NCBI RefSeq assembly: GCF_963921235.1
Contig: NC_086108.1
Location: 82,834,001-82,898,000, forward strand
From: Mobula hypostoma
Lineage: Eukaryota
Length of the DNA stretch: 64,000 nt
Reading direction: 5' to 3'
The notes under the pieces were generated by a model, which did not search any database, was not told the DNA's origin, and worked only from the letters and a program-made list of their open reading frames with translations. Positions 1,505-60,967 of this stretch are shown here, piece after piece. The stretch's first letter is position 1; each line of letters opens with the position of its first letter. Both the position numbers and the translations under genes were made by a program.

Positions 1505-1640
1505 GCACTAGTAACTCAGACATACCAGTTTAAATCCCACAATGGCAGGCAAAAAAAAAACAATCATTAGCACTGATGACAGAAAAGTTACCAAGCTGTT
1601 GTAAAAACACGTTCGGTTCACTTACATCCTTTAGGCCTTA
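1505..1640 (+). mobile_element. Ancient DeuSINE/SacSINE-like fragment
   Basis: TTGTAAAAACACGTTCGGTTCACTTACATCCTTTAGG resembles the conserved domain of this SINE group, recognised from memory. Confidence 0.4.
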
Positions 1641-1749: not shown

Positions 1750-2893
1750 TGTTCATAAGATATAGGAGCAGAATTAGACTATTTGGTCCATAGAGTCTGC
1801 TCCACCATTTAATCATGGCTGATCTATTTTTCCTCTCAGCCCCAATCTCCTGCTTCTCCCCATATCTCTTCATGCCCTGACCAATCAAGAACCTATCAAC
1901 CTCTGCCTTAAATATACATAAAGACTTGACCTCCACAGCCCCCTGTGACAACGAATTCCACGGATTCACCACTCTCTGACTAAAGGCATTCCTCCTTATC
2001 TCTGTTCTAAAAGGAGCCCTCTATTCCAAGGCGGTCCTTTGGTCTTAAACTCTGCCACCATAACAAACATCCTCTCCATGTCTACGCTGTTGAGGCCTTT
2101 GAGCATTTGATAGGTTTCAGTTAGTTCTGAATTCCAGTGAATACAGGCCCAGAGCCATCAAATGCTCTTCATATGACAAGCCATTCAATTCTGGAATCAT
2201 TTTCGTGAACCTCTTTTGAACCCTCTCCTGTGTCAACAAATCCTTTTTAAGAAAAGGGACCCAAAACTGCTCATAATACGCCAAAGTGAGGCCTCACCAG
2301 TTCTTTATGAAGCCTCAACATTACATCCTTGCTTTTATATTCGAGTCCACTTGAAATGAATGCTAACATTGCATTTGCCTTCCTCACCACTGATACAACC
2401 TTCAAATGAACTTTTAGGGAATCTCCCAAGTCCCTTTGCAACTCAGAGTTTTGAATTTTCTCTCCATTTAGAAAATAATCTATCCTTTGATTTCCTCTAT
2501 CCAAGTATATGACTGTATTACATCTGCCACTTCTTTGCCCATTTTCCTAATCTGTCTAAGTCCTTCTGCAGCCTTTCTACTTTGTCAAAACTACCTACCT
2601 TTCCACGTATCTTCACATTGCCTGCAAACTTTGCAACAAAGCCATCAATTCCACATCCAAATCATTGAAATAAAACATAAAAAGAATCAGTCCCAACACA
2701 GACCCCCGTGGAACACCACTGGTCACGCCAGCCACAGCCAGCCAGAAAAGGCTCCATTTATTCCCACTCTTTGTCTCCAGCCAAACAGCCAGTGCTTTAT
2801 CTTTGCTAGTGTCTTTCTTGTAATACCATGAGCTTGTAGCTTCTTAAGTAGCCTCACGTGCAGCACCTTGTCAAAGGCCTTCAGAAAATCCAA
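1750..2893 (-). mobile_element. CR1 LINE, decayed RT and 3' end
   Basis: ORF fragments LDFLKAFDKVLH, KANAMLAFIS..LVRPH, VNPWNSL..FKAEVDRFL. Confidence 0.92.
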
Positions 2894-3042
2894 GTTCGTG
2901 GACTGTTCAGAATGTTGATGATGGAGGGGAAATCTTAAGGATGAACAATAGTTCATTGAAAGTAGGGAGCAAACGATATCTGGCTGATAAAGGATCCAAG
3001 GGATATGGGAATAGTACTGGAAAACAGAGCTGAGAGAGATCA

Positions 3043-3248
3043 ACAGGAATTCTGCAGATGCTGGAAATTCAAGCAACACACATCAAAGTTGCTGGTGAAC
3101 GCAGCAGGCCAGGCAGCATCTCTAAGAAGAGGTACCGTCGACATTTCAGGCTGAGACTCTTCGTCAGGACTAACTTCGACGGTACCTCTTCCTAGAGATG
3201 CTGCCTGGCCTGCTGCGTTCACCAGCAACTTTGATGTGTGTTGCTTGA
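3043..3248. mobile_element. Miniature Penelope-like element made of inverted terminal (pLTR) pieces
   Basis: ~3070-3142 is the reverse complement of 3176-3248; same family as the ends of the GIY-YIG element at 7893-9572; candidate TSD GAGATCA at 3036-3042 and 3251-3257 inside a CR1 tail. Confidence 0.88.
3137..3170 (-). ncRNA. Degenerate minimal type-I hammerhead ribozyme motif
   Basis: Minus strand reads GUC-CUGACGA-AGAGUCUCAGCCU-GAAA-UGUC-GAC; stem II and the helix-III palindrome are mutated. Confidence 0.6.
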
Positions 3249-3374
3249 CGGAGATCAGGCTAGATATTGGTGACAAGCAGAATGGTTCTGTAATACCAGA
3301 ATGCATATTCCTAATTCTTGTTTTCTTGTGCTCTTATCGAGATTCTCTTCATTTCTACTTTTTAACAAGCAATG

Positions 3375-7322: not shown

Positions 7323-7630
7323 GGGCAGCACAGTAGCATGGTGATTAGCACAATGCAGCACAGTGCCAGCTGTAAGATTAGGGTTTGAATTTCTGCCACT
7401 GTCTGTAAGGAGTTTGGATATTTTCTGTGACTGTGTGTGTTATCTCTAGGTGCACCAATTTCCTTCCAAATTCCAAAACCCTACTGGTCAGGGTTTATTA
7501 ATTGTGGGCATTCTATGTTGGTGCTGGAAGCATGGCAACACTTGTGGGCTGCCCCCAGCACAATGTTGATTGTTGCAAAGTGACACATTTCATTGTATGC
7601 TTTGATATACATGTGACAAATAAAGCTAAC
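7323..7630 (+). mobile_element. HE1-like V-SINE
   Basis: tRNA-like head (GGCAGCACAGTAGCATGGTGATTAGCAC..GGTTTGAATT), V-domain remnant, tail GTGACAAATAAAGCTAA. Confidence 0.7.
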
Positions 7631-7990
7631 CTCAGTTTCCCTTATTTTGCGACAGCAACTTCTGGTCGTAGACACACAACCAGGTGAAAACATTATCCTG
7701 CATCAATTCCATCCAGTTCCTATCAGAGTTTTGGACACTTCAGTGATAGCACTACTTCTTCATCTAAACTGAGAGGAAGATGGGTCTGGATTGTTTAATC
7801 TTTCCTCATAGGACAAACCCAAGTAATTATTCTGGTGAGCCTTCAGTACCCTCCTATCATAAGAACATCCTTGTCTTGATAGAGAGACCACTAACACGAG
7901 GAATTCTGCAGATGCTGGAAATTCAAGCAACATACATCAAAGTTGCTGGTGAACGCAGCAGACCAGGCAGCATCTCTAGGAAGAGGTACA

Positions 7991-8024
7991 GTCGACGTTT
8001 CGGGCTGAGACCCTTCATCAGGAC
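7991..8024 (-). ncRNA. Minimal type-I hammerhead ribozyme with intact core
   Basis: Minus strand reads GUC-CUGAUGA-A-GGG(UCUCAG)CCC-GAAA-CG-UC^GAC: both catalytic boxes, stem I GUC/GAC, stem II GGG/CCC, palindromic ACGU helix III. Confidence 0.85.
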
Positions 8025-8324
8025 GAACTGAAGGAAGAGCTGGTAAGAGATTTGAAAGTGGGAGTGGGAGGGGGAGATCCAAAATGATAAGAGAAGACAG
8101 GAGGGGGAGGGATGGAGCCAAGAGCTGGACAGGTGATAGGCAAAAGGGATATGAGAGGATCATGGAACAGGAGGCCCAGGGAGAAAGAAAAGGGGAGGGG
8201 GGGAAACCCAGAGGATGGGCAAGGGGTATAGTGAGAGGGACAGAGGGAGAAAAAGAAGAGAGAGAGATAAAGAATGTGTGTATATAAATAAATAACGGAT
8301 GGGGTACGAGGGGGAGGTGGGGCA

Positions 8325-8968
8325 TTAGCAGAAGTTTGAGAAGTCAATGTTCATGCCATCAGGTTGGAGGCTACCCAGATGGAATATAACGTGTTGTATC
8401 GGCTTCATCTTTACAGTAGAGGAGGCCATGGATAGACATGTCAGAATGGGAATGGGATGTGGAATTAAAATGTGTGGCCACTGGGAGATCCTGCTTTCTC
8501 TGGCGGAGCATAGGTGTTCAGCAAAACGATCTCCCAGTCTGCGTTGGATCTCGCCAATATATAGAAGGCCACATCGGGAGCACCAGACGCAGTATATCAC
8601 CCCAGCCGACTCACAGGTGAAGTGTTGCCTCACCTGGAAGGACTGTTTGGGGCCCTGAATGGTGGTAAGGGAGGAAGTGTAAGGGCATGTGTAGCACTTG
8701 TTCGGCTTACAAGGATAAGTGCCAGGAGGGAGATCGGTGGGGAGGGATGGGGGGATGAATGGACAAAGGAGTCGTGTAGGGAGTGATCCCTGCGGAAAGT
8801 GGAATGTTGGGGGGAGGGAAAGATTTGCTTAGTGGTGGGATCCTGATGGAGGTGGCGGAATTTACGGAGAATAATATGTTGGACCCAGAGGCTGGTGGGG
8901 TGGTAGGTGAGGACAAGGGGAACCCTATTCCTAGTGGGGTGGCGGGAGGATGGAGTGGCTCTGTCCAC
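8325..8968 (-). pseudogene. Penelope ORF C-terminus: post-RT linker and GIY-YIG endonuclease, frameshifted
   Basis: RVPLVLTYHP in 8630..8968 and FTCESAGVIYCVWCSRCGLLYIGEIQRRLGDRFAEH in 8325..8633. Confidence 0.92.
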
Positions 8969-9471
8969 CAGAGAAAGCAGGATCTCCTAGTGGCCACACA
9001 TTTTAATTCCAAACCCCATTCCCATTCTGATATGTCTGTCCATGGCCTCCTCTACTGTAAAGATGAAGCCACACTCAGGTTGGAAGAACAACACCTTATA
9101 TTCCATCTGGGTAGCCTCCAATCTGATGGCATGAACATCGACTTCTCAAACTTCCACTAATGCTCCACCTCCCCCTCGTAACTCATCCAGTATTTATTTA
9201 TATACACACATTCTCACACTCTCTCTCTCTCTCTCTCTCTCTCCTTTTCTCCCTCTGTCCCTCTCACTGTACCCCTTGCCCATCCTCTGGGCTCTCCCCC
9301 CCCCCTTTTCTTTCTCCCTGGGCCTCCTGTCCCATGATCCTCTCATATCTCTTTTGTCAATCAACTGTCCAGCTCTTGGCTCCATCCCTTCCTGTCCTGT
9401 CTTCTCCTATCATTTTGGATCTCCCCCTCCCCCTCCCACTTTCAAATCTCTTACTAGCTCTTCCTTCAGTT

Positions 9472-9507
9472 AGTCCTGACGAAGGGTCTCTGCCCGAAAC
9501 ATCGACT
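9472..9507 (+). ncRNA. Minimal type-I hammerhead ribozyme, inverted copy
   Basis: AGUC-CUGACGA-A-GGG(UCUCUG)CCC-GAAA-CA-UC^GACU; ACGU palindrome mutated to ACAU. Confidence 0.78.
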
Positions 9508-9619
9508 GTACCTCTTCCTAGAGATGCTGCCTGGCCTGCTGCGTTCACCAGCAACTTTGATGTGTGTTGCTGGAGAGACCACTCCCTGTTCTTGGTATTC
9601 CAGATGTGAGCTCCCCACA

Positions 9620-12345: not shown

Positions 12346-12534
12346 CTCTTTTTCAATAAAATCACTCCTTTTGTATTTGTTGTTTTTAATTTGGAGGAAT
12401 GGAGAAGCCTTATATTATAGCATGACCACATATGAGGTTAGAATTTTTGTTTCAATAGGATAGTAAATGAGTTGTGTTTTATGACCAAAAGTAAGATCAT
12501 GTTTATTTATTGCTGAGGCAACTCCCATTCAAAC

Positions 12535-13577
12535 AGGAGGGCTCCTGTGCTGTGGAAGATGTCCTGCCTTTTCCCTGTGCCAAAGACGCCGCTCCCCAGC
12601 GGCCTCAATGACTACAGACCGGTGGCATTGACCTCCCACATCATGAAGACCCTGGAGAGACTTGTTCTGGAGCTGCTCCGGCCTATGGTCAGGCCACGCT
12701 TAGATCCCTTCCAGTTCGCCTACCAGCCCCGACTAGGAGTTGAGGATGCCATCGTCTACCTACTGAACCATGTCTACGCCCACCTGGACAAGCCAGCGAG
12801 CACTGTGAGGGTCATGTTTTTTGACTTCTCCAGTGCGTTCAACACCATCCCCCCTGCTCTGCTGGGGGAGAAGCTGACAGCGATGCAGGTGGATGCTTTC
12901 CTGGTGTCATGGATTTTTGATTATCTGACTGGCAGACCACAGTACGTGTGCTTGCAACACTGTGTGTCTGACACAGTGATCAGCAGCACTGGGGCTCCAC
13001 AGAGGACTGTCTTGTCTCCCTTTCTCTTCACCATTTACACCTCGGACTTCAACTGCCGGACGATGCTGAGGATGTTCTACAAGTCTGGGGTGGCCAGTGT
13101 GATCATGTTTGCTGCTGTGTGCTGTGGCAACTGTCTGAGGGTAGCAGACACCAACAGAATCAACAAACTCATTCGTAAGGCCAGTGATGTTGTGGGGATG
13201 GAACTGGACTCTCTGACGGTGGTGTCTGAAAAGAGGATGCTGTCCAAGTTGCATGCCATCTTGGACAATGTCTCCCATCCACTACATAATGTACTGGTTG
13301 GGCACAGGAGTACATTCAGCCAGAGACTCATTCCACCGAGATGCAACACAGAGCGTCATAGGAAGTCATTCCTGCCTGTGGCCATCAAACTTTACAACTC
13401 CTCCCTTGGAGGGTCAGACACCCTGAGCCAATAGGCTGGTCCTGGACTTCCTGACATAATTTATATATTACTATTTAACTATTTATGGTTTTATTACTAT
13501 TTAATTATTTATGGTGCAACTGTAATGAAAACCAATTTCCCCCGGGATCAATAAAGTATGACTATAACTATGACTAC
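12535..13577 (+). mobile_element. Rex1/Babar LINE, 5'-truncated, with internal deletion
   Basis: RT motifs DYRPVALTSHIMKTLERL, QFAY, FFDFSSAFNTI, GAPQRTVLSP; ends AATAAAGTATGACTATAACTATGACTA. Confidence 0.93.
12547..13434 (+). pseudogene. Rex1/Babar reverse transcriptase fragment: 295-codon open frame lacking the catalytic xADD-type motif
   Basis: YTSDFNC joins directly to RTMLRMFY; GTG start within a truncated element. Confidence 0.88.
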
Positions 13578-15329: not shown

Positions 15330-15584
15330 TTTTATGTATTTATTTACTTAGAGACACTGCATGGACCAGGCTGAATGAGCCACACCACCCAGCAACTCAC
15401 CTATTTAAAACTAGCCTAATCACAGGACAACTTGTTTGTTTACAATTATCCTACCAGCTGGAACATCTTTGGGCCGTGGGAGGAAACTGGATCATCTGGA
15501 GGAAACCCAAGCGGTTTGCAACGAGCATGTACAGACAGTGCTGGATTTGAACTCTGAACTCTGGAACACCGGAGCTGTAATAGT
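15330..15584 (-). mobile_element. HE1-like V-SINE
   Basis: CATCTTTGGGCCGTGGGAGGAAACTGGATCATCTGGAGGAAACCCA is the reverse of the V-domain. Confidence 0.75.
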
Positions 15585-15740
15585 AACACCTACAAAATGC
15601 TGGAGCAACTCAGCAGGCCAGGCAGCATCCATGGAAAAGAGTAAACAGTCGATGTTTCGGGCCAAGTAACTTTTTCAGGATTCTTGGTCCGAAACCTTGA
15701 CTGTTTATTCTTTTCCATAGATGCTGCCTGGCACTTCTCC

Positions 15741-15773
<33 letters not shown>

Positions 15774-15813
15774 GCTTTGAATCTCCAACATCTGCAGATT
15801 TTCTTGTGTTTGC
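15585..15813. mobile_element. Miniature Penelope-like element with inverted pLTR pieces and expanded (TG)n
   Basis: CCAGGCAGCATCCATGGAAAAGAGTAAACAGTC is inverted as GACTGTTTATTCTTTTCCATAGATGCTGCCTGG; hammerhead remnants at the centre. Confidence 0.85.
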
Positions 15814-16089
15814 ACACTCTAATCGTGATGCACATATGGAGTGGAGGGCATTGCTGAGTTATTTTATTGCCCTTTATCCAGATAATCCATTATTCTTCAC
15901 AAATAACATGAAGTGGAAGTTTAAGAGTAATCAGCTGCAGGTTTTAAAGTAATAATCTAAAGATTAGGAAGTAATAAATTGAAATTCGTGTATTAGTCTG
16001 AGTGAGACTCTGAAGGCTGTCAACTCCCAGCATCAATCCCTCAGCATAGTTCCCTCAAAAAAAATCTCCAGAAATTCAACCGGGATTTG

Positions 16090-16589
16090 TTTTACATTCC
16101 AGAAGAAAGTCCTGGATGCTGATCCCATAGACTGATCTCGCATTCAGGCAGAAGAATAAACGTGTGGCAATGTGTTTCAAAATAAAAGAGGATCTGGAAA
16201 CCTATCTGTAGTGCGATGGGGTTGAGTGACCCTCTTTATTCAATAAATTTGTCAGGGAAAAAAAACATTATTGTGCTGTATCTCAACTTATTTGTTCAGC
16301 GTGCATTCTTCGGCTATTTTAATGTTGTCACTCTGTCTTGTGCACTTAGAAGGCCTTGACAGATCATTCAATTCTCTCCATCATTTAAATGTTAAAAACC
16401 TTGGAAGGGCAGAAGAGATGTGTATATGCATTGGAAAATAATTTGATCTTTCACTAATGCAGGCACAAAGGTGAGGAAACAGTTGACCAGGGGTAATTCC
16501 TGAAAAAGGAAAAGGATTGGTAAGGGTTGGGGGTGGGGGGGGGGTGCTGAGTGGAGAAAGCTCGCGTAGGCGCGAACACGTGGACACAC

Positions 16590-16624
<35 letters not shown>

Positions 16625-17333
16625 TGAATTCGCATCCAGGTTTCATTTGCTAGTCATTGGCAGCAAATTGCATTCTATTTTGGAGAATGACTGCAAAGTT
16701 TGTCGCAGGTGATAATGGCTGAATTTGCAGGCACAAATTGAAATTTATGACATTGAAAATGAGTACCAAAAAAAAAATGCATTTTTTAAAGTAGACAACC
16801 TTCACATCCGAGGGCAAGCCGAGGAGAAATAGGAAAGCTTGATAGGTGCGCATTGTTGGGCACATTAGCGACAATAATGTTGTCGCTGGCGATGTAAATT
16901 GACGTGGTACATAGTCAATAGACACAGTTGGCTGCTCGCAAGTAGGGAAGTACTTAAGGAGTGTCACTGACAAATGAAATATTTTAGGGACTTAATCAGA
17001 ATAATGACTTTCATCAGGCGGTGACAAGTATTACTGCTTCATCGCACCTAAAGAGAAATATGATTGCATACATAGATTTTGTGATCAGCGCGCTTGTACC
17101 CCAGTGGCCCCTGTGAAAGGCAGGAGAAGGTGGCAGCCGGCGCCTCTGGCTCCCACTCGGCTGATAAATCGCTTCCCAGATACAAGGCGGACAAATCCCA
17201 ATCTGCGGCGTGCTGGGTTCATACAGCTCAGCAGCGGGCTGCCCGCTACTTCCAGCATAAACACTAATAAATCTCAGCACTTCCAGCCGCCATCAGTCAG
17301 GTATTGCTGGGAATGCGTTTGTGCAGAAGCTGA

Positions 17334-17335
<2 letters not shown>
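16090..17335. promoter_or_regulatory. Candidate conserved non-coding element / enhancer cluster, locally CpG-rich
   Basis: No recognisable TE; elevated CpG; TGACAG/TGTCA and TAAT motifs; conservation not tested. Confidence 0.4.
16593..16622 (+). repeat. (CA)n microsatellite
   Basis: Directly visible. Confidence 0.95.
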
Positions 17336-17364
<29 letters not shown>

Positions 17365-18230
17365 TTGGCTGTGAGAATTATGCTGGAAAACACACACACA
17401 CCCGAAAGAAGAAAAGTGGGAAAACGGGTGGCGGGAGAAAAGCACGGAATTAAACAGGGGAAATTTTACAAAGGCATTAGAAAGTTAATAAATAGTCGAG
17501 GGGCGGGGGGAGATAAAAAGCGGCAAATTATTTTAGAGAATTATCCAGTGAATAGTTGTCAAAAAGGTTGTATACAGAGGATAAAGGCAATGAAAGCTAG
17601 AAGTACAGAAATAAGAGAGATAAAAGAAGCGGGAGGAGTGGTAAATGATAAGGTACCAACGTAGAATGGGCTCACAAAATAACACACAGAGACCCGCTCC
17701 GGCCTCGACCACCCAGTTGTGGTCTGCACTTGTCACTCGAATCTGCCTGGCACGGGATGAGTGTACTCTAGGTCACTGAAGAGAGATCACCTCAGAGAAA
17801 CAGCCTTGCGTCCTGTTGGGTAGGAACAGGGGTAAAAATGGGATTTTGCTATTTAATCCCGTCCAAACCATTTTATCCCCTACAATACCCTGCACCCCTC
17901 ACCGTCAGCCACAGTCGGGAAAGCGACAGAGGAACACTGTAACATCGGGAATGTGAAAGACTTTGATAGTTGCTGCCGAAAAAAATGAAAATGGAATGAA
18001 ACAAAAAAAGGTAGATTGTGAGATAAATAGTCCGCGTGGAAATCAATTCTAGACTTTTTTTTCAAAGCGATGAATCTGGAGTAAATAGAGGGAAAATGGA
18101 TAAAAAAATAAAAAATAAAAATAAAACTGATGCAAAGCTTTGATGGAAGAAGAAAAATACAACAGATACATCTGAAGGAAACAGTGTAAAATGTGAAAGA
18201 ACAGCAAACTCAGTGACAAAATCCAGGAGA

Positions 18231-21200
18231 ACGAGGGGGGAGAGAGAGAGAGAGAGAGGGGGGGGGGCGGGAGAGAGAGAGAGGGGAGGGAGAGAGAGAG
18301 GAGAGAGAGAGGGGAGAGAGAGAGGGGAGAGAGAGAGAGAGGGGAGAGAGAGAGAGAGGGAGAGAGAGAGAGAGAGGGGAGGGAGAGAGAGAGAGGGGAG
18401 GGAGAGAGAGAGAGGGGAGGGAGAGAGAGGGGAGGGAGAGAGAGAGGGGAGGGAGAGAGAGAGGGGAGGGAGAGAGAGAGGGGAGGGAGAGAGAGGGGAG
18501 AGAGGGGGAGAGAGAGGGAGAGAGAGGGGGAGAGAGAGGGGGAGAGAGAGGGGGGAGAGAGAGGGGGAGAGAGAGGGGGAGAGAGAGGGGGGGAGAGAGA
18601 GGGGGGGAGAGAGAGGGGGGAGAGAGAGGGGGAGAGAGAGGGGGAGAGAGAGAGGGGGAGAGAGAGGGGGAGAGAGAGGGGGGAGAGAGAGGGGGAGAGA
18701 GAGGGGGAGAGAGAGGGGGAGAGAGAGGGGGGAGAGAGGGGGGAGAGAGAGAGGGGGAGAGAGAGGGGGGAGAGAGAGGGGGGAGAGAGAGGGGGGAGAG
18801 AGAGAGGGGGAGAGAGAGAGGGGGAGAGAGAGGGGGAGAGAGAGGGGGGAGAGGGGAGAGAGGGGGAGAGAGAGAGGGGGGGAGAGAGAGAGGGGGAGAG
18901 AGAGGGGGGGAGAGAGAGAGGGGGAGAGAGAGAGGGGGAGAGAGAGAGGGGGAGAGAGAGAGGGGGAGAGAGAGGGGGGAGAGAGAGGGGGGAGAGGGGG
19001 GGAGAGAGGGGGGAGAGAGAGGGGGGAGAGAGAGAGGGGAGAGAGAGAGGGGAGGGAGAGAGGGAGAGGAGAGGGAGGGAGAGGGAGGGAGAGGGAGGGA
19101 GAGGGAGGGAGAGGGAGGGAGAGGGAGGGAGAGGGAGGGAGAGGGAGGGAGAGGGAGGGAGAGGGAGGGAGAGGGAGGGAGAGGGAGGGAGAGAGGAGGG
19201 AGAGGGAGGGAGAGGGAGGGAGAGGGAGAGAGAAGAGAGAGAGGGGAGGGAGAGAGGGGGGAGAGAGAGGGGAGAGAGAGGGGAGAGAGAGAGGGGAGAG
19301 AGAGAGGGGAGAGAGAGAGGGGAGAGAGAGAGGGGAGAGAGAGAGGGGAGAGAGAGAGGGGAGAGAGAGAGGGGAGAGAGAGAGGGGAGAGAGAGAGGAG
19401 AGAGAGAGGGGAGAGAGAGAGGGGAGAGAGAGAGGGGAGAGGGAGAGGGGAGAGGGAGAGGGGAGAGGGAGAGGGGAGAGGGAGAGGGGAGAGGGAGAGG
19501 GGAGAGGGAGAGGGGAGAGGGAGAGGGGAGAGGGAGAGGGGAGAGGGAGAGGGGAGAGGGAGAGGGGAGGGAGAGGGGAGGGAGAGGGGAGGGAGAGGGG
19601 AGGGAGAGGGGAGGGAGAGGGGAGGGAGAGGGAGAGGGGGAGGGAGAGGGAGAGGGGGAGGGAGAGGGGGAGGGAGAGGGGGAGGGAGAGGGGGAGGGAG
19701 AGGGGGAGGGAGAGGGGGAGGGAGAGGGGGAGAGAGAGGGGGAGAGAGAGGGGGAGAGAGAGGGGGAGAGAGAGGGGGAGAGAGAGGGGGAGAGAGAGGG
19801 GGGAGAGAGGGGGAGAGAGAGGGGGGAGAGGGGGGGGAGAGGGGGGAGAGAGAGATGGGGAGAGAGAGAGGGGGAGAGAGAGAGGGGGAGAGAGAGAGGG
19901 GGAGAGAGAGAGGAGGGAGAGAGAGGGGAGGGAGAGAGAGGGGAGGGAGAGAGAGGGGAGGGAGAGAGAGGGGAGGGGGAGAGAGAGGGGAGGGGGAGAG
20001 AGAGAGGAGGGGGAGAGAGAGAGGGGAGGGGGAGAGAGAGAGGGGAGGGGGAGAGAGAGAGGGGAGGGGGAGAGAGAGAGGGGAGGGGGAGAGAGAGAGG
20101 GGAGGGGGAGAGAGAGAGGGGAGGGAGAGAGAGAGGGGAGGGAGAGAGAGAGAGGGGAGGGAGAGAGAGAGAGGGGAGGGAGAGAGAGAGGGGAGGGAGA
20201 GAGAGAGGGGAGGGAGAGAGAGAGGGGAGGGAGGGAGAGAGAGAGGGGAGGGAGGGAGAGAGATGGGAGGGAGAGAGATGGGAGGGAGAGAGATGGGAGG
20301 GAGAAGGGGAGAAGGAGAGGGAAGGAGACGGAGAGAGAGAAAGGGTGAGGTGGGAACAAGAGAGGGAGAGGGAGAAGGAAATGGGGAGGGAGAGCAAGAG
20401 GGAGAGAGAGGGGGAGGGATTGGAACTAGAGAGAAAGAGAGGAAGAGGGGAAAGAGGGAGAGGGGAGAGGGAGGGAAAGAAGAGAGCGAGAGGGAGAGGA
20501 GGAAAGAGGGAGGAGGGATTGGAGCCAGAGAGAAAGAGAGAGGAGAGGTAGAGGCGAGAGGGAGAGGGAGAGGGAGAGGGAGAGGGAGAGGGAGAGGGAG
20601 AGGGAGAGGGAGAGGGAGAGGGAGAGGGAGAGGGAGAGGGAGAGGGAGAGGGAGAGGGAGAGGGAGAGGGAGAGGGAGAGGGAGAGGGAGAGGGAGAGGG
20701 AGAGGGAGAGGGAGAAGGAGAGAGAGGGAGGGAGAGAGGGAGAGGGAGAGGGAGAGGGAGAGGGAGAGGGAGAGGGAGAGGGAGAGGGAGAGGGAGAGGG
20801 AGAGGGAGAGGGAGAGGGAGAGGGAGAGGGAGAGGGAGAGGGAGAGGGAGAGGGAGAGGGAGAGGGAGAGGGAGAGGGAGAGGGAGAAGGAGAGGGAGAA
20901 GGAGAGGGAGAAGGAGAGGGAGAGGGAGAGGGAGAGGGAGAGGGAGAGGGAGAGGGAGAGGGAGAGGGAGAGGGAGAGGGAGAGGGAGAGGGAGAAGGAG
21001 AGGGAGAAGGAGAGGGAGAAGGAGAGGGAGAAGGAGAGGGAGAGAGAGGGAGAGAGAGGGAGAGAGAGGGAGAGAGAGGGAGAGAGAGGGAGAGAGAGGG
21101 AGAGAGAGGGAGAAGGAGAGGGAGAGAGAGGGAGAAGGAGAGGGAGAGAGAGGGAGAAGGAGAGGGAGAGAGAGGGAGAAGGAGAGGGAGAGAGAGGGAG

Positions 21201-21795
21201 AAGGAGAGGGAGGGAGAGGGAGAAGGAGAGGGAGGGAGAGGGAAGGAGAGGGAGAGAGAGGGAGAAGAAGAGGGAGGGAGAAGGAGAAGGAGAGGGAGGA
21301 AGAGGGAGAGAAAGAGAGGAGAGAGAGATAAAGAGAGAGAGGAGAGAAGGAAAGGGGAGGGAGAGCGAGAGAGGGAGAGAAGAAGAGGGAAGTGGGAGAG
21401 AGAGGGAGATGGAGATGGGAAAGGAGGGGGGAGGGGGAGAAGGAGAGGGAGAGGAAGAAAAAGAGGTAGAGAAGGGTAAGAGAGAGAAAGAGAGGGGAAG
21501 ATGGAGAGGGAAGGAGAGAGAGGGAGGTGGGGAGAGAGGGGGAGAGATAGAACGAGAGTGAGGAGAGGAAGAGGGGAGAGGGTGAGGAAGATGGAGAGAG
21601 GGGAGAGAGAGAGAGGGAGGTGAGGAAGACGGAAATGGGGAGAGAGTGGGAGAGGGGACACAGAGAGGTAGAGGGAGAATGAGAGGGAGAGGGAGAAGGA
21701 GATAAGGAAGGAGAACAGAGTGACTGGGGGTGGGGGTGGGAAGAGAGTGAGAGAGGAGAAAGAGAGCACGAGTGAGAATGAGTGAGTGGGGGGGG
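18231..21795 (+). repeat. ~3.5-kb polypurine (G/A) low-complexity tract
   Basis: Almost only G and A; sub-arrays include (GGGAGGGAGA)n at ~19070-19220 and (GGGAGA)n at ~20560-20880. Confidence 0.97.
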
Positions 21796-22539
21796 GAACT
21801 AAAGACCACATGTAAGTGAACGAGGTATAAAGCATTCTGCTAAGAGGTTTAAATCTCATATGTTGAAAATTATGGCTCCCATGATGCCAGGAAAATGAAA
21901 ATCATCTTCAATTACTGCTAGGTTTAAGACATGATTATTTCATGTGCACGATATTAAGGAAATGACAGCGGAAATTCGTCAGGAGAAATTAATACTTAAC
22001 AGTTTTAACAAAGACTCCCCAGTGAGCCTTTTTCTCACCCGCTGTGACACAGCCATGCATTCCAGCCTACTTGTTAAATTCAAGTAACAGTGAGCGGATA
22101 TGAATAAAAGAATCTGTCATATTTAAACAGAAGGGGAAAAATGACAAAAAGGAGAAAACTGCTGGAGAAACAAGAGGAGAAATGTACAGGTCAAGGGCAA
22201 AAGCAGTCATGTATGCATAGGTGATTTTTAAGACCTTTTTTAGCCACTATACTGGTCATGGTATCTTTCTTCTCATATATTTTGACTTGATCCTATGCCA
22301 CTACTCTCCATCCGAACACTAAAAGAGAGCAAACCACCTTGTGAAAAAAGTTTGAGATTTAAAGCAATAGGGGTCTCTAATTGCTATTAATTTTAAGGTT
22401 GTTTCTATTTTTTCCTTTAACCACTCACCGCTTTTAAAATTTCATTAAGTATTCCTTCCTTCCAAAACTATTAATGCTGAACGATGATCACACCCTGAGG
22501 GCAGGGGACTGGGTGGTCGTTCCCTGAATCTCTGCTCCC

Positions 22540-26254: not shown

Positions 26255-27375
26255 GTTGCTATATCAGTAAGATTGAAAATGTGCCAAGAAAATTTACAAG
26301 TATGTTGCCAGAACTTGAGGAACTGAGTTACAGGTGTGGTTGAATACGAGGGGTGATTGATAAGTTCGTGGGCTAAGGTAGAAGGAATCAATTTTAGAAA
26401 ACCTAGCACATTTATTTTTCAACATAGTCCCCTCCTATATTTACACACTTAGTCCAGCAGAGTCGTGGAGCATACGGATCCTGGACCTGCAGTAAGTGTC
26501 CACAGCAGGGGTGATTGGTAAGTTCGTGGCCTAAGGTAGAAGGAGATGAGTCATACGGCTCTCATTAGATGCACATGCAGTTCAACGCTTTGATTGATAA
26601 TGCAGAAAGTTTGAAGTTAATAACTCATCTCCTTCTACCTCAGGCCACGAACTTATCAATCACCCCTGATGAGTTATTAACTGATGTGCTATTGACTTCA
26701 AACTTTCTGCATAATCACTCAGAGTTGAACTGCATGTGCATGTAACGAGGCCTGTATAACTCATCTCCTTCTACCTTAGGCCACGAACTTTTCAATCACC
26801 CCTGCTGTGGACACTTTCTGCAGGTCCAAGATCCGTATGCTCCACGACCGCTGGACTAAGTGTGTAAATATAGGAGGGGACTATGTTGAAAAATAAATGT
26901 GCTAGGCTTTCTAAAATTGACTCCTTCTACCTTAGGCCACGAACTTATCAATTACCCCTCGTAGGTTAACTTAATTCCTGGAAGTATAGGAGAATGAGGG
27001 GAGATTTGATAGAGGTATACAAAATTCTGAGGGTATAGATAGGGTAAATACAAGCAGGCTTTTCCTACGAAGGATGGGTGAGAATAAATCTAGAGGTCAT
27101 AGGTTAAGGGTGAAAGGTGAAGTGTTTGAGAAAAGCATGAGAGGGATCTTCTTCACTCAGAGGGTGGTGAGAGTGTTGAATGAGCTGCCAATGGAAGAGC
27201 TTCATTTGGTTTTGATTTTAACATTGAAGAGAAATGTGGATAGGTACATGAATGGGAGAGATATGGAGGGCTATGGTCCGAATGCAGGTTGATTGGACTA
27301 GGTAAATTAATAGTTCAGCATGGACTAGATAGGCTGATGGGCTTTTTTTCTGAACTGTAGTGTTCTATGACTCTA
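26255..27375 (+). mobile_element. CR1 (second subfamily) 3' part, interrupted by a mariner derivative
   Basis: RKFTSMLPELEELSY before the insertion and FFTQRVVRVLNELP after it; tail TTCTATGACTCTA. Confidence 0.9.
26347..26961. mobile_element. Palindromic mariner-derived non-autonomous element
   Basis: TA TSD at 26345-46 and 26962-63; TIR CGAGGGGTGATTGATAAGTTCGTGG; 26831-26896 encodes IRMLHDRWTKCVNIGGDYVEK*, a mariner transposase C-terminus, mirrored in the left arm. Confidence 0.93.
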
Positions 27376-32244: not shown

Positions 32245-32405
32245 GATACTGGAATCAGAAAGGAAAAGCGAAATGCTGGAGGAACTCAGAGGGTCAGGTA
32301 GCATCTGTAACATCCAGATGAATGGTCTTGAGCCATGAAGTTGACTGTCCATTTCCCACCACAGATACTGCCTGACATCTTGAGGTCCTCTAGTATTTTA
32401 TTGCT
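32245..32405. mobile_element. Old miniature Penelope-like element with inverted ends
   Basis: AAATGCTGGAGGAACTCAGAGGGTCAGGTAGCATCTGT is inverted as ACAGATACTGCCTGACATCTTGAGGTCCTCTAGTATTT. Confidence 0.75.
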
Positions 32406-32646
32406 TATTTCCATTGTCAGCAGAATTCAGAGCTTTTGTGGCAAACTATGACCTTTTCTGTTCACTGGTAGATAAACTAGATGCATACTATGTAGAGAAT
32501 GGCAATGTGTAGACAATTAAATAGTTAAATACTTTGTGCACAATGTCAGCCAGCCACAGTTCTTCATGCTCAGCCTTATGGAAGATGAAGGAGATGGATC
32601 TTAACAGATTGCCATTAGTTTTTTTTCCCAATCAGTTCTGAATTTA

Positions 32647-34049: not shown

Positions 34050-35890
34050 ACATTGTAGAGGGCAAGGGCTACCTATGCACAAAAAAATTCAGGAACATCT
34101 GTCCGATACTGATCCCCAGCGCATGTGGCTGGGCTTCAGCTGCATTATCGACTATGGAAGGACAAACAGCATCGACTATTCCAGTGGTGCCTCCCTCCCT
34201 GAATCTCTAAAGAGGTTTTATGCATGCTTTAAGGCACGCAACACAACTCCAGCCATGAAAGCTACCTCCTTCCCAGGTGAGCAGCCATTGTCTGTAACAT
34301 CAGCCGATGAGAGAAGGACTCTGCAGAGAGTCAACCCCCCACCCCCCCAAAGGCTGCCAGGTCAGACACCTTTCCAGGTTAAGTACTCAGGGGTGTGCAC
34401 ACCAGCTCACTGGTGTCTTCATGAACACCATCAACACTTCGCTCTTCAAGGCTGCCATCCCCACATGCTACAAGTCAGCCACCGTCATCCCTGTACCAAA
34501 GAACTCTACACCTTCAGAACTAAGTGACTACAACGTGGTGGCACCTACGCCAATCATCACGAACTGTTTTGAATGGCTGGTAATAGCAAAAATAAAAAAA
34601 AAATTCTTGCCACAATGGATACTGAATAATATGCTTACCAACAGAACCACGATGCAGCTGGCCCTGACACGCTCAGGGAACAAAGGACACTGATATCAGA
34701 ATGCTGTTTCTGGATTTCAGCTCAGCATTCAACACTATTGGTCCCACAGAGCTCGGTGAGCAAACTCCTATTCCTCACTCTAAGTACATCACTGTGCAAC
34801 TGGGTGTTGGACTTCCTAACAGACCTCAGTTAGTCAGGATGCACAACTGTTTCTCCCTTCCCATTATCCTCACTACGGTTGTCCCTCAGAGCTGTGTGCT
34901 GAGCCCATTGCTGTACTCTCTACTTACAAATGACTGCACCGCCAAGCACTCCAGCCACCGATGATATGACATGGTCAAGTTCACCGATGATATGACAGCA
35001 GTGGGGCTAGTCACCATCATCGATGAGAGGAGGTGGAAGAGCTCGAGGCCTGGCGCCAGGCAAGTAACCTCCTCTTCATTGTTAACAAAACAAAGTAGAT
35101 AGTTATTGACCTCAGAACTTGCGCCACTCACACCCCACTTTACGTCGGGAGCACAGCGGAGGAAACAAGTAGCAGTTTCAAACTCCTGGGAGTGCACATC
35201 TCACACAACCTCTCATGGTCTCAGAACATAGTCTACACAATCACCAATGCCTCTACACTCCAAGGAGGCTGAAACGAGTTGGACTATGCACTTAAATACT
35301 TATGACCTTCCACAGATGTGCAGTAGAGAGCATCCTAACCTGCTGCATCACTGCATGGTGCAGAAACAGCAGTGAAAGCAGACGGGAAGGCCTCACATCG
35401 GGTAGTCAAAACTGCCCTACAATTCCTAGCACCAGCCTACTGGGCATCAAGGACAGATATACAGAAAGGTGCCAGAAAAAGGCTAGCAATATCATAAAGG
35501 ATCCCACCCACCAAGTTCATGGACTATTTGTCCACTGTCATCATGGAGGAGGCTATATAGCATCCAAGCCAGAATGGCCAGACTCAAAAACAATTACTTT
35601 CCCCAAGCAGTAAGGCTGATCAACACCTCTAACTACTAACCCATCCCTCCACAACCACCACCACCACTGCTTTATCATTTCCTGTCAGAGTCACCTTATG
35701 TACAGACACTCAAGTACCTAACATCACTTTATGTACATACAGTGTAATCAATTTATGTATATAAATTACCTTACGTATTTATATTTATCTTTTTTTATTA
35801 TTGTGTTTTCTTGTGCTGCATCAGATCATAACTAACAATTATTTCTTTCTCCCATACACTTGTGTACCGGAAAGAACACTAAACAATATT
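34050..35890 (+). mobile_element. Rex1/Babar LINE, decayed
   Basis: CYKSATVIPVPK, MLFLDFSSAFNTI, PQSCVLSPLLYSLLTNDC, RCAVESILTCCITAW. Confidence 0.92.
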
Positions 35891-38010: not shown

Positions 38011-38489
38011 AGTTGGAATAAGTTACATGCCGACCCTTTGTCAAGTCAAATTTTATTTTTGCACCTTATCTAAACTTCTCATATATTTTAATTATGACTT
38101 TAAAATTCCACCATTAGACATGAATCATTCAGGATTTATACTTGTTACCTAGCAAACGAGATATAGGAGAATAGTGATCGATTGGTGATGGTTTACCATG
38201 GATGCATAATGAGATAATGGGCCTTTGAATCTCCAAGTCCAAAATAACACAATTATAGTAAACACATATACTTGCATGTTCATTTGATGACAGAAGTACA
38301 GTAACTGACACCCAAATCATGTAAGTTATTTCAGTAAATTCATGCAAATAAGCTCATATAAAAGTAACACCTTCAGACAGGAAATAAGACCTATTCAAGC
38401 AGCTGGGCATAAAACAGTCACTTCAGGTAGATTGAGAGTTAAAGGTATGATGCTCCACATTTCAGCTGCTGAGCACTCATTTCTCGCCT

Positions 38490-39470
38490 GGGTTGTATAC
38501 TCAGGACAAGCCCACTGCTCTACTCTGCATATACACATGACTGTGTGGCTAAGCATAGCTCAAGTACCATCTATAAATTTGCTGACGATACAATCATTGT
38601 TGGTAGAATCTCAGGTGGTGACAAGAGGGTGTACAGGTGTGAGATATGCCAACTAGTGGAGTGGTGCTGTAGCAACAACCTGGCACTCAACGTCAGTAAG
38701 ACAAAAGAGATGATTGTGGACTTCAGGAAAGGTAAGACGAAGGAACACATACCAATCCTCATAGAGGTATAAGAAGTGGGGAGAGTGAGCAGCTTCAAGT
38801 CCCTGGGTGTCAAGATCTCCGAGGACCTAACCTGGCCCCAACATATCAATGTAGTTATAAAGAAGGCAAGACAGCGGCTATACTTTATTAGGAGTTTGAA
38901 GAGATTTGGCATGTCAACAAATACACTCAAAAAATTCTATAGTTGTACCATGGAGAGCATTCTGACAGGCTGCATCACTGTCTGGTATGGAGGGGCTACT
39001 GCACAGGACCGAAAGAAGCAGCAGAGAGTTGTAAATCTAGTCAGCTCCATCTTGGGTACTAGCCTGCAAAGTACCCAGGACATCTTCAGGGAGCGGTGTC
39101 TCAGAAAGGCAGCGAACATTATTAAGGACCTCCAGCCCCCAGGGCATGCCCTTTTCTCACTATTACCATCAGGTAGGAGATACAGAAGCCTGAAGGCACA
39201 CACTCAGCGATTCAGGAACAGCTTCTTCCCCTCTGCCATCTGATTCCTAAATGGACATTGAATCTTTGGACACTACTTCACTTTTTTAATATACAGTGTT
39301 TCTGTCTTAGCATGTTTTTAAAAAATCTATTCCATATACGTAATTGACTTGTTTATTTTTTATTCTATTTATTTTTCTCTCTGCTAGATTATCTATTGCA
39401 TTGAACTGCTGCTGTTAAAAAATTTCATGTCACATGCTGGCAATAATAAATCTGATTCTGATTCTGACTC
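38490..39470 (+). mobile_element. Rex1/Babar LINE 3' kb, relatively young
   Basis: KFADDT ORF 38545..38772 continues in frame past one stop into 38776..39243 (KKARQRLYFIRSL..FRNSFFPSAI); tail AATAAA(TCTGAT)n. Confidence 0.94.
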
Positions 39471-52886: not shown

Positions 52887-53648
52887 CAGTGCCTACAAAA
52901 AGTATTCACTGCCCTTGGAAGTTTTCATGTTTTATTCTTTTTTTTTTACAACATTGAATCACAGTGGATTTAATTTGGTTTTTTTGACACTGATCAACAG
53001 AAAAAGACTTTCATGTCAAAGTGAAAACATATCTCTACAAAGTGATGTAAATTAATTACAAATATAAAACACAAAATAATTGATTGCACAATTACTCACT
53101 CCCTTCAAGTCAGTATTTATTAAATACAGCTTTGACAGCAATTACAGCCTTGAGTCTGTGTGGATAGGTTTCTATCAGCTTTGCACATCTGGACACTGCA
53201 ATTTTTCCCCATTCTTCTTTATAAAACTGCTCAAGCTCTGTCAGATTGCATGGGGATCATGAGTGAACAGTGCTTTAAGTCCTGCCACAAATTCTCAATT
53301 GGCTTGAGGTCTGGACTCTGACTTGACCACTCCAGGACATTAACTTTGTTGTTTTTAAGCCATTCCTGTGTAGCTTTGGATTTATGCTTGGGGCCATTGT
53401 CTTGTTGGAAAACAAATCTTCTCCCAGATTGCAATTCTCTTGCAGACTGCATCAGGTTTTCCTTCAGGGTGATTGACTTAACTGCACTCCAAAGGATATT
53501 CAGTGACTTGGAAATTTTCTTGTATTCATTTCCAGACTTGTGCTTTTCAATAACCTTTTTTGCAGAGTTGCTTATAGTGTTCTTTTCTCTTCATAGTGTA
53601 GTTTTTCCAGGATACTGACTCACCGGCAGTTGGACTTCCTGATACAGG
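52887..53648 (-). mobile_element. Tc1 transposon, deleted; one end retained
   Basis: TA|CAGTGCCTACAAAAAGTATTCAC terminus; ORF 53231..53452 [26 protein letters not shown] covers the DD34E region. Confidence 0.92.
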
Positions 53649-58399: not shown

Positions 58400-59610
58400 T
58401 AGGTGTCAATATCTGTGAGGATCTAACCTGGTCCCAACATATTGATGCAGCTACAAAGAAGGCAAGACGTGACTATATTTCATCAGGAGTTTGTGGAGAC
58501 TTGGTTTGTCACCAAAACACTCGAAAACTTCTACAGATGTACTGTAGAAGGCATTCTGACAGGCTGCATCGCCATCTTGTATGGGGGTGGAGCTACTGCA
58601 CAGGATCAAAAGAAGCTAAAGAAAGTTGTAAAATTAGTCAACACACACAAAATGCTGGTGGAATGCAGCAAGCCAGACAGCATCCATAGAAGAAGCACAG
58701 TCGACGTTTCAGGTCGAGACCCCCATCCTGAGACCCTTAGAGGTTCCATCTTCCTCTCACCCCAACCCTCCCTCTCCACTGACACTACCAGCCTCCCTCC
58801 CCCTCCCCCTTCTGATCCCAGCTCTCGTCCGTGCCGGGTTTTTACCATGCCCTCCGATCTTCCACTCTGAGGCAGAGTGCTCTGTCCTCAGTAAGGGCCT
58901 CACCTTTGTCCCCTTTCGCCCCACACCTCAGCGAGTTCCATGTGTGCCATGACGCTGAACTCTTCTTCTGTCGGCTCCAACTTTGAGCCTACCTCTTCGG
59001 CAAGGACTCTCCCACCCCCACCGATGAACCCTTCTCCCATCTTCAACCCTCCTCCTCTTCATGGACACCCCGCTCTGGTCTTCTGCCTGCTCTGGATCTC
59101 TTTATTGCTAACTGCTGACGGGACATCAACCATCTTGACTTCACCGCACCTTGTTCCAATTCCAACCTCACTGTTCCTGATGAAGACTCTCAGCCTGAAA
59201 CGTCGACCGTGCTTCTTCCTATGGACGCTGTCTGGCCTGCTGCATTCCACCAGTGTTTTGTGTGTGTTGCTTGAACTTCCAGCATCTGCAGATTTCCCCG
59301 TGTTTGCGTTTGTAAAATTAGTCAGCTCCATTGTGGGTACCAGTATCCAAGGCATCTTCAAGGCGCGGTGCCTCAGAAAGCCGATGTCTATTATTAAAGA
59401 CCACCATCATTGTGGACATAACCTTTTGTCATTGTTACCATCAGGAAGGAGGTACGGAAGCCCAAAGGCACACTATCAGTGATCCACTAACAGCTTCTTC
59501 CTCTCTGCCATCCGATTTCTAAATGGACGTTGAACCCATGAACACTATCTGACTTTTTAAAATTATTTCTGCTTTTGCTCTACTTATTTAACTTAACTAT
59601 TTAAATAATA
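58400..59610 (+). mobile_element. Rex1/Babar 3' fragment split by a Penelope insertion
   Basis: FYRCTVEGILTGCI..KKVVKLV|SSIVGTS; homologous to the uninterrupted copy at 38800-39290. Confidence 0.9.
58641..59309 (+). mobile_element. Internally deleted Penelope-like element with inverted ends and 15-bp TSD
   Basis: TSD TTGTAAAATTAGTCA at 58626-58640 and 59310-59324; N-terminal ORF remnant (CRVFTMPSDLP..VLSKGLTFVP); hammerhead remnants at ~58699-58725 (-) and 59173-59207 (+). Confidence 0.92.

Positions 59611-60927: not shown

Positions 60928-60967
<40 letters not shown>

What the first reader, a model, noticed from the sequence alone, without database searches (positions are those of the whole stretch)
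7991..8024. Intact minimal hammerhead ribozyme in a Penelope-like terminal repeat
Seen: the minus strand reads GUC CUGAUGA A GGG-UCUCAG-CCC GAAA CG UC GAC, with both catalytic boxes, stems I and II, and a palindromic ACGU in place of helix III. Established: Penelope-like elements carry minimal type-I hammerheads that cleave efficiently only as dimers through this palindrome. Inference: this is the only copy in the window likely to be still catalytically competent. The second copy in this element (9472-9507) is antisense and has a broken palindrome, so a partner would have to come in trans.
Basis: partly seen in the sequence, partly recalled or inferred. Interest (0 to 1): 0.72.

Follow-up and report, generated by a model that had tools for sequence, protein, structure and literature searches.

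The report
Fossil hammerhead in ray Penelope retrotransposon
The 34-base hammerhead ribozyme motif is really there, but it is an ordinary, already described part of a broken Penelope-like retrotransposon that is very abundant in the genome of what is likely a ray, and this copy is predicted to be masked by its own inverted twin and so likely does not cut in the animal.

Summary
Confirmed: 7991-8024(-) is a minimal type-I hammerhead (core, extra A after A9, G10.1-C11.1, 4-bp stem II, ACGU palindrome). It is the only descriptor hit in the window; chance 2 of 150 and 0 of 150 simulations. It lies in the 3' pseudo-LTR of a 5'-truncated, frameshifted Neptune-type Penelope-like element whose closest homologues are in Mobula and Hypanus rays. 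The unit is a head-to-head inverted pair with an 11-bp target duplication and a tail at one end. All of this is published PLE anatomy.

'Intact and competent' is overstated. A private change at 8025 (family letter in 96-98% of depth) cuts stem I to 3 bp. The active fold is a minor state in native context. In a read-through RNA, 33 of 34 bases pair with antisense arm b. Same-strand copies could serve as cis partners. Published min-HHR dimers cleave poorly. Covariation over 12 window copies was not significant.

One lead: 5 of 14 copies begin within 8 nt of the ribozyme's 5' edge, next to an acceptor-like AG (post hoc, hand-read).

The parts
7991..8024 (-). Minimal type-I hammerhead motif (copy a); predicted cleavage between 7994 and 7993
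8025..8025 (-). Private substitution that opens the 4th pair of stem I and removes the second AG of the acceptor-like site
   Evidence: table 3 (family letter in 96.4, 95.7, 98.3 and 98.5% of depth); copies b and c carry the family letter
8026..8045 (-). Pyrimidine tract and YAG directly 5' of stem I. Predicted to pair with the CUGAUGAAGG core (anti-ribozyme fold); also resembles a 3' splice acceptor (weak)
7893..8960 (-). Arm a: 5'-truncated PLE copy (end of RT, Zn-linker, GIY-YIG, 3' pLTR, hammerhead, tail)
7893..7922 (-). PLE tail, about 30-35 nt, present at this end of the unit only
8328..8828 (-). Frameshifted remnant of the C-x4-CxxC linker and GIY-YIG endonuclease (two Cys between the IY and YIG motifs)
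   Evidence: GIY-YIG E=0.018; 69% identity to a Mobula protein, E=1e-56
8964..9572 (+). Arm b: inverted 5'-truncated copy without tail; 41 substitutions in 581 aligned columns against arm a
9473..9506 (+). Hammerhead copy b; palindrome broken, stem I 5 bp, stem II 4 bp
7882..7892 (+). Left target-site duplication, 11 bp
9573..9583 (+). Right target-site duplication, 11 bp
3043..3250 (.). Second inverted unit (c minus with tail, l plus without), 7-bp duplication; c starts at the ribozyme's 5' edge, l about 2 nt before the cleavage site
58641..59309 (.). Third unit (e minus without tail; N-terminal PLE ORF piece joined to copy d plus with tail), 15-bp duplication
15580..15812 (.). Fourth inverted unit (g minus, h plus with tail), decayed; no clear duplication found

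Best explanation
This is a minimal hammerhead ribozyme motif in the 3' end of a truncated, frameshifted Penelope-like retrotransposon copy, one of at least 13 such ends in this 64-kb window; it is likely a fossil that has so far escaped decay by chance and likely does not cut at this locus, because folding predicts that it is masked by nearby sequence and by its inverted twin. In the active ancestors the motif would have worked as a double hammerhead. Two copies in a tandem transcript would pair through ACGU/ACGU (helix III) and swap stem I strands, probably helped by the element's own protein, and would cut after GUC at low efficiency (inferred from the literature, not shown here). Target-primed reverse transcription then left two 5'-truncated cDNA copies joined head to head between 11-bp target duplications, one ending in the tail and one not (anatomy shown; mechanism inferred). 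The arms have since diverged by 7%. At about 3.5% change per arm, the 23-34 sites of the motif survive unchanged with probability 0.29-0.44, so one good copy among several young ones needs no selection.
For: Motif and chance control. PLE identity: GIY-YIG remnant 300 nt upstream in sense; 10 homologues, 9 annotated from Mobula/Hypanus rays, most of them carrying the RT YIDD motif and GIY-YIG; frameshifts by tblastn. Anatomy: inverted arms, one-sided tail and target duplication in 3 of the 4 units examined, the fourth with tail asymmetry but no clear duplication. This matches PMC8557442 (passages) and the opposite-strand dual min-HHRs in PMC4209133. High copy: 13-14 ends in 64 kb; summed depth at 8025 is 1.1-1.8 x 10^5 times that of the unique flank (the tool warns this is not a copy number). 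Selection on the motif in master elements: in all 4 runs, loose ends pile up at 7988 and 8024, the two edges of the ribozyme, so other subfamilies keep the ribozyme and differ on both sides, with a 5-bp CAGUC/GACUG stem I. A distant PLE relative, L015, has the same architecture with different stems and an AUAU palindrome (1 of 31 loci). Decay and masking of this copy.
Against: Nearest-neighbour folding ignores tertiary core contacts and proteins, and the Anolis PLE hammerhead cuts only with protein (PMC11167929), so a poor predicted fold does not prove inactivity. A transcript starting between the arms (about 8510-9470) would escape masking by arm b. Covariation over the 12 window copies was not above shuffles (64.9% of cells paired against 65.3%; 330 of 500 shuffles as high), although it beat all six slid registers. 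No phylogeny was built, so 'Neptune' rests on the linker motif. No raw RNA reads were available.
Confidence: 0.86

Rival explanations
1. This copy is an active, possibly co-opted ribozyme that cuts a minus-strand transcript at 7994/7993 with a partner in trans or in cis (copy c or e).
For: All core letters, G10.1-C11.1 and the palindrome are kept. On paper, an a-c heterodimer pairs all four helix III positions (one G-U) with 5-bp stems I. The family is abundant in the two runs guessed to be RNA, so trans partners probably exist.
Against: The private change at 8025 shows ongoing decay. The active fold is a minor state and arm b masks it. Survival is expected by chance. The a-c dimer scores -5.8 against -24.1 kcal/mol for the best fold. 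No host coding exon was found among 223 long ORFs scanned. In Anolis no RNA-seq reads began or ended at the PLE hammerhead site (PMC11167929).
Confidence: 0.07
2. In this family the motif matters mainly as a structural landmark rather than as a nuclease: its 5' edge is where reverse transcriptase stops or switches template, or where an intron of the element ends. This is compatible with the best explanation for this copy.
For: 5 of 14 copies start 100-107 nt from the untailed end, within 8 nt of the ribozyme's 5' edge (P about 2e-4 under the most favourable exponential null, about 2.5e-3 after allowing for window choice); 8 of 14 start in it or just before it (P=0.018). Copies d, g and i begin at UCC directly after the position of the AG that follows a pyrimidine tract in long copies. 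In D. virilis Penelope the intron ends at the 5' end of helix I (PMC4209133). Hammerhead cleavage was dispensable for insertion in vitro (PMC11167929).
Against: Boundaries were read by hand, post hoc, n=14, and j may simply continue into a diverged subfamily. The AG is also part of stem I. Six of the 21 YAG sites in arm a, this one included, have 12 of 15 pyrimidines. The pile of loose ends at 8024 is at least partly explained by another subfamily plus the private change at 8025. No splice joint at 8023 or 8027 is among the 15 joints shown of 1929.
Confidence: 0.3
3. The motif belongs to a non-LTR retrozyme (tandem non-coding repeats with a hammerhead in each unit, making circular RNA).
For: Retrozymes derive from PLE pLTRs and occur in a chondrichthyan (10.64898/2026.07.22.740005).
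Against: No head-to-tail repeat of the unit is seen here. The copies are inverted or dispersed, and this one is attached to ORF remnants.
Confidence: 0.02
4. Chance match to a short degenerate motif.
For: Rfam finds no hammerhead; the minimum-energy fold is not a hammerhead.
Against: Descriptor chance rate 2 of 150 and 0 of 150; the position in a PLE pLTR is as published; the motif is conserved between subfamilies.
Confidence: 0.01

Closest known systems
[quoted passage not shown]
   Same: Type-I topology, no helix III beyond a palindrome at 15.1-16.1, extra nucleotide between 9 and 10.1, G10.1-C11.1, location in the pLTR, mostly solo truncated copies, and dual copies on opposite strands (100-700 bp apart in the paper, 1.45 kb here).
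   Different: Host is likely a ray; the parts and supplement files searched name bony fishes, coelacanth, Xenopus and reptiles, with no shark or skate entry. Stem II is 4 bp (7-8 bp in S. mansoni). This copy's stem I has decayed to 3 bp.
Neptune-clade EN+ Penelope-like elements (as described in Craig et al. 2021, PMC8557442; passages read)
   Same: C-terminal GIY-YIG with two Cys between the motifs, CX2-5CxxC linker, 5' truncation, inverted copy, 30-40 bp tail at one end, variable target duplication.
   Different: A dead fragment. No ray ORF of 801 aa or more was among the 46 long homologues, best 49% identical. No tree was built.
PAc (Poseidon) hammerhead of Anolis carolinensis (Frangieh et al. 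2024, PMC11167929; parts 1-2 of 4 read)
   Same: Hammerhead about 100 nt upstream of the two insertion ends that bound the tail; an AUG about 25 nt before the cleavage site.
   Different: PAc is Poseidon clade and was assayed (protein-assisted, dispensable in vitro). Here the AUG frame stops at about the untailed end, and nothing was assayed.
Lunse, Weinberg and Breaker, RNA Biol 14:1499 (PLE hammerheads cleave as dimers)
   Same: Dimer model as summarised in the review PMC6765202 (passages).
   Different: The paper is not held, so I could not check whether it lists this ray family.

Membership tests
PLE minimal type-I hammerhead (min-HHR) | Core CUGANGA ... GAAA ... UH | tested here: met
   8021-8015, 8001-7998, 7995-7994
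PLE minimal type-I hammerhead (min-HHR) | Extra nucleotide between 9 and 10.1 and a G10.1-C11.1 pair | tested here: met
   A8014; G8013-C8002; features from PMC4209133
PLE minimal type-I hammerhead (min-HHR) | Palindromic 15.1-16.1 in place of helix III | tested here: met
   ACGU 7998-7995
PLE minimal type-I hammerhead (min-HHR) | Helix I (4-5 bp in the S. mansoni families, 2 bp in D. virilis) | tested here: met
   3 bp in this copy, 5 bp in copy b and in the other subfamily
PLE minimal type-I hammerhead (min-HHR) | Covariation in stems across copies | tested here: inconclusive
   12 decayed window copies: not above shuffles, above slid registers. Subfamily boundaries coincide with ribozyme edges. 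L015 shows changed stems and palindrome.
PLE minimal type-I hammerhead (min-HHR) | Lies in the pLTR of a PLE, in sense | tested here: met
   300 nt downstream of the GIY-YIG remnant on the same strand
PLE minimal type-I hammerhead (min-HHR) | Self-cleavage as a dimer | not testable with these tools
   No assay; only contigs and no raw RNA reads were offered. Folding disfavours the active state.
Neptune-clade EN+ PLE | RT followed by C-terminal GIY-YIG with two Cys between GIY and YIG | tested here: met
   Window remnant and ray homologues
Neptune-clade EN+ PLE | CX2-5CxxC linker between RT and EN (shared with Nematis) | tested here: met
   C-x4-CxxC in the 8328-8828 frame; definition from PMC8557442
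Neptune-clade EN+ PLE | 5' truncation, inverted partner copy, one-sided tail, target duplication | tested here: met
Neptune-clade EN+ PLE | RT phylogeny groups with reference Neptune elements | not tested
   No named reference set was at hand
Non-LTR retrozyme | Head-to-tail non-coding repeats with a hammerhead in each unit | tested here: not met
   Inverted and dispersed copies, attached ORF remnant
Rfam hammerhead families | Covariance-model match | tested here: not met
   No hammerhead family up to E=5 (window) or E=10 (101 nt)

The most novel reading that the evidence does not exclude
In this ray PLE family the 5' edge of the hammerhead is a fixed junction of the replication cycle: an intron's 3' splice site abuts stem I (as in D. 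virilis Penelope), or reverse transcriptase stalls and switches template there. A large share of the roughly 10^5 genomic copies would then begin exactly at the ribozyme. The family would be a very large natural record of how PLE inverted insertions form, and would show the motif acting as a splicing or RT landmark in a vertebrate Neptune element rather than as a nuclease.
Probability: 0.3. Interest if true: 0.55.

Novelty: new member of a known kind. Interest (0 to 1): 0.2.

Why it matters
The flagged copy matters little. Minimal hammerheads are described in the terminal repeats of canonical PLEs across animals, and one well-kept copy among 13-14 in a window is expected from neutral decay. 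What PLE hammerheads do in vivo is still open (PMC8557442 says so; PMC11167929 found them dispensable in vitro). A ray family this abundant, with sharply readable junctions, makes one part of that question testable by computation alone: whether cDNA 5' ends fall at the cleavage site, at the ribozyme's 5' edge, or anywhere. I found no paper stating such clustering or describing this ray family in seven answered literature searches, but subscription papers, Lunse et al. among them, and repeat databases were not searchable.

Tried and rejected
No whole genome is held, so there was no genome-wide census.

Rfam: no hammerhead hit.

More family copies were sought in public collections. Viral contigs gave one chance phage match, 0 hits and no protein relative. 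Metagenomes gave 0 pattern hits and 29 distant PLE loci. Of the 31 loci held, 1 carried a descriptor hit (L015). Prokaryote genomes gave 1 match with no family flank, which fails the descriptor.

Sequencing runs: no RNA holder is on record, and all runs are kept as contigs, so RNA 5' ends at the cleavage site could not be looked for. No loose-end pile at 7993 is among the 24 rows shown of 5318, which is too few to say there is none. A contig of organism B runs from the unique flank 27 letters into the element with 5 differences in 321. This hints that the insertion predates the split of A and B, but it is below the tool's 31-letter bar.

Host gene: 223 of the 225 ORFs of 62 aa or more that passed a complexity filter (581 ORFs of 45 aa or more in all) were scanned against Pfam; 2 more went. 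Only transposon domains and two weak stray hits appeared, so the transcribed strand is unknown.

One search used a mis-registered structure string and is discarded; one search is the correct count. No covariance model was built. Earlier scan findings: none returned.

The idea that the AUG inside CUGAUGA starts the long ORF was dropped: that frame stops at about the untailed end in copy a.

Full report
Observation. Allowing 3 mismatches gives two matches, this one and 9473-9506(+), and none in 100 shuffles. A structural descriptor (core, optional extra nucleotide, stems I and II of 3 bp or more, palindromic helix III) gives one hit on both strands of the window, this copy. Relaxing stem II to 2 bp adds copy c at 3167(-). 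Markov controls gave a hit in 2 of 150 and 0 of 150 simulated windows. Stem II is 4 bp with a 4-nt loop, and the scissile bond is 7994/7993. Rfam does not recognise it.

What it sits in. A stop-to-stop frame at 8328-8828(-) carries a C-x4-CxxC linker and a GIY-YIG domain with two cysteines between the motifs. Nine of its 10 longer homologues are annotated from the rays Mobula hypostoma and Hypanus sabinus (best 69% identity, E=1e-56), and most of the sequences fetched show the RT YIDD motif. So the window is likely from a myliobatiform ray and the element is an EN+ Penelope-like element. The linker points to the Neptune clade (PMC8557442, passages); no tree was built. The ORF is frameshifted. 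The insertion runs from 7893 to 9572 between 11-bp target duplications. It consists of arm a (8960 to 7893, minus, with a tail of about 30-35 nt) and arm b (8964 to 9572, plus, no tail), which differ at 41 of 581 aligned columns. Three more inverted units have the same one-sided tail (3043-3250 with a 7-bp duplication, 58641-59309 with a 15-bp duplication, 15580-15812 with none clear); a fifth short one lies near 32270-32430. A profile that leaves out the ribozyme finds 13 pLTR ends at E<1e-5 and one at E=0.002, while the reversed-window control gives nothing below E=3.5. Laying four public runs on 7500-8950 brought 286,521 and 271,710 contigs from two DNA runs. Summed depth at 8025 is 1.1-1.8 x 10^5 times that of the unique flank (the tool warns that this is not a copy number).

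What is known. PMC4209133 (parts 1-2 read) describes minimal hammerheads in PLE pLTRs with exactly these marks: an extra nucleotide after A9, G10.1-C11.1 and a palindrome at 15.2-16.2. It reports thousands of solo copies per genome, pairs on opposite strands, no cleavage as monomer and low cleavage as dimer or trimer. PMC8557442 (passages) describes the inverted 5'-truncated copy and the one-sided tail, and calls the hammerhead's function unclear. PMC11167929 (parts 1-2) shows that the Anolis PLE hammerhead cuts only with the element's protein, is not needed for insertion in vitro, and leaves no read ends in RNA-seq. The preprint 10.64898/2026.07.22.740005 (parts 1 and 3 and passages; supplements not seen) found cleavage in 1 of 9 Xenopus retrozyme dimers. 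Lunse et al. is not held and is known to me only through the review PMC6765202 (passages). PMC2377424 and PMC6431247 were read as passages.

Was the ribozyme under selection? In master elements, likely yes. In all four runs loose ends pile up at 7988 and 8024, the two edges of the motif. Other subfamilies therefore share the ribozyme but differ on both sides, and their 5-bp stem I (CAGUC/GACUG) still pairs. A distant relative, L015, has the same plan with other stems and an AUAU palindrome (1 of 31 loci). Against this, covariation counted on the 12 window copies is no higher than shuffles (64.9% of cells paired against 65.3%, 330 of 500 shuffles as high), though higher than all six slid registers. 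Decayed genomic copies are a poor set for this test.

Is this copy competent? Likely not in vivo.
(1) Position 8025 differs from the letter carried by 96.4, 95.7, 98.3 and 98.5% of family depth, which shortens stem I from 5 to 3 bp.
(2) The bare 34-mer forms stem II (P 0.998) but its core mispairs. With 20 nt or more of native upstream sequence, the pyrimidine tract or downstream sequence captures the core: P(stem I) is 0.02 or less and P(stem II) 0.01-0.23.
(3) The a-a double hammerhead scores -14.3 kcal/mol against -24.3 for the best dimer fold and -20.2 for two monomers.
(4) A minus-strand transcript through the unit makes antisense arm b first and is predicted to fold into a hairpin of 553 arm-to-arm pairs, in which 33 of the 34 ribozyme bases are paired to arm b, with P above 0.998 at the two core positions checked.
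(5) Survival needs no selection: at 3.5% change per arm, 23-34 sites stay unchanged with probability 0.44-0.29.
Caveats: these models omit tertiary contacts and protein, and a transcript starting between the arms would escape point 4. No host exon was found, so whether such transcripts exist is unknown.

A lead beyond the finding. Reading the 5' junction of each of the 14 copies by hand, 5 start within 8 nt of the ribozyme's 5' edge and 8 start in it or just before it (P about 2e-4, or 2.5e-3 after window choice, and 0.018, under the most favourable exponential null; post hoc). Copies d, g and i begin at UCC, right after the place where long copies have a pyrimidine tract and AG. In D. virilis Penelope the intron ends at the 5' end of helix I, 46 nt of exon after the start site (PMC2377424). 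So the edge may be a splice acceptor or a template-switch point. Against: n is small; j may continue into another subfamily; the AG is also part of stem I; the tract is no richer than five other YAG sites among the 21 in arm a; and the 8024 pile is at least partly a subfamily effect, though its long (median 98-139) and poorly agreeing (0.37-0.45) ends resemble those at the true element end 7893. Only copy l starts near the cleavage site. I put this at 0.3.

Verdict. A real but ordinary PLE minimal hammerhead: a new member of a known kind, in a dead and partly decayed copy. Interest 0.2. The junction-clustering lead would deserve about 0.55 if a genome-wide map confirms it.

Noticed in passing
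window 58770-59175 (+): An N-terminal PLE ORF piece (LSKGLTF motif, frameshifted) is joined directly to the 5' edge of hammerhead copy d inside a unit with a 15-bp target duplication: an internal deletion or template jump that lands on the ribozyme.
   Followed up: partly
window 3165-3185: Junction of unit c/l: one arm starts at the AG or UUAG before stem I and the other about 2 nt before the cleavage site. Both arms share a GACGG variant, so they likely came from one template.
   Followed up: partly
window 8026-8042 (-): The upstream pyrimidine tract is predicted to pair with the CUGAUGAAGG core in copy a, and copy b loses its stems in the same way once 10 nt or more of upstream sequence are included: a possible built-in off state of this subfamily.
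   Followed up: partly
window 16000-18230: About 2 kb of apparently non-repetitive, CpG-richer sequence with a 218-codon open frame (17008-17661 +) that has no Pfam hit; it looks like a promoter or conserved non-coding region.
   Followed up: no
window 18230-22000 and 60600-61700 (bounds approximate): Long, strongly skewed (GA)-rich simple-repeat tracts.
   Followed up: no
window 26345-26963: Near-perfect inverted repeat (arms of 114 and 128 nt, 91-96% complementary), MITE-like or another inverted retroelement pair.
   Followed up: no
window 53234-53590 (-): Tc1/mariner transposase fragment (HTH_SB, DDE_3).
   Followed up: no
window 12517-13431 (+), 34668-34961 (+), 38473-39240 (+), 2726-3082 (-): LINE-type reverse transcriptase fragments; unit c/l is inserted at the edge of the last one.
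   Followed up: no
L015 about 1580-1622 (-): Minimal hammerhead with a 7-bp stem II and AUAU palindrome, about 1.2 kb from a distant PLE RT and on the opposite strand.
   Followed up: partly
proteins P0003, P0005, P0006: Ray gene models named mucin-2, divergent protein kinase domain 1C and chitinase domain-containing 1 match this PLE's ORF, and the two whose sequences I read (P0005, P0006) consist almost wholly of it: annotation contamination or exonisation.
   Followed up: no
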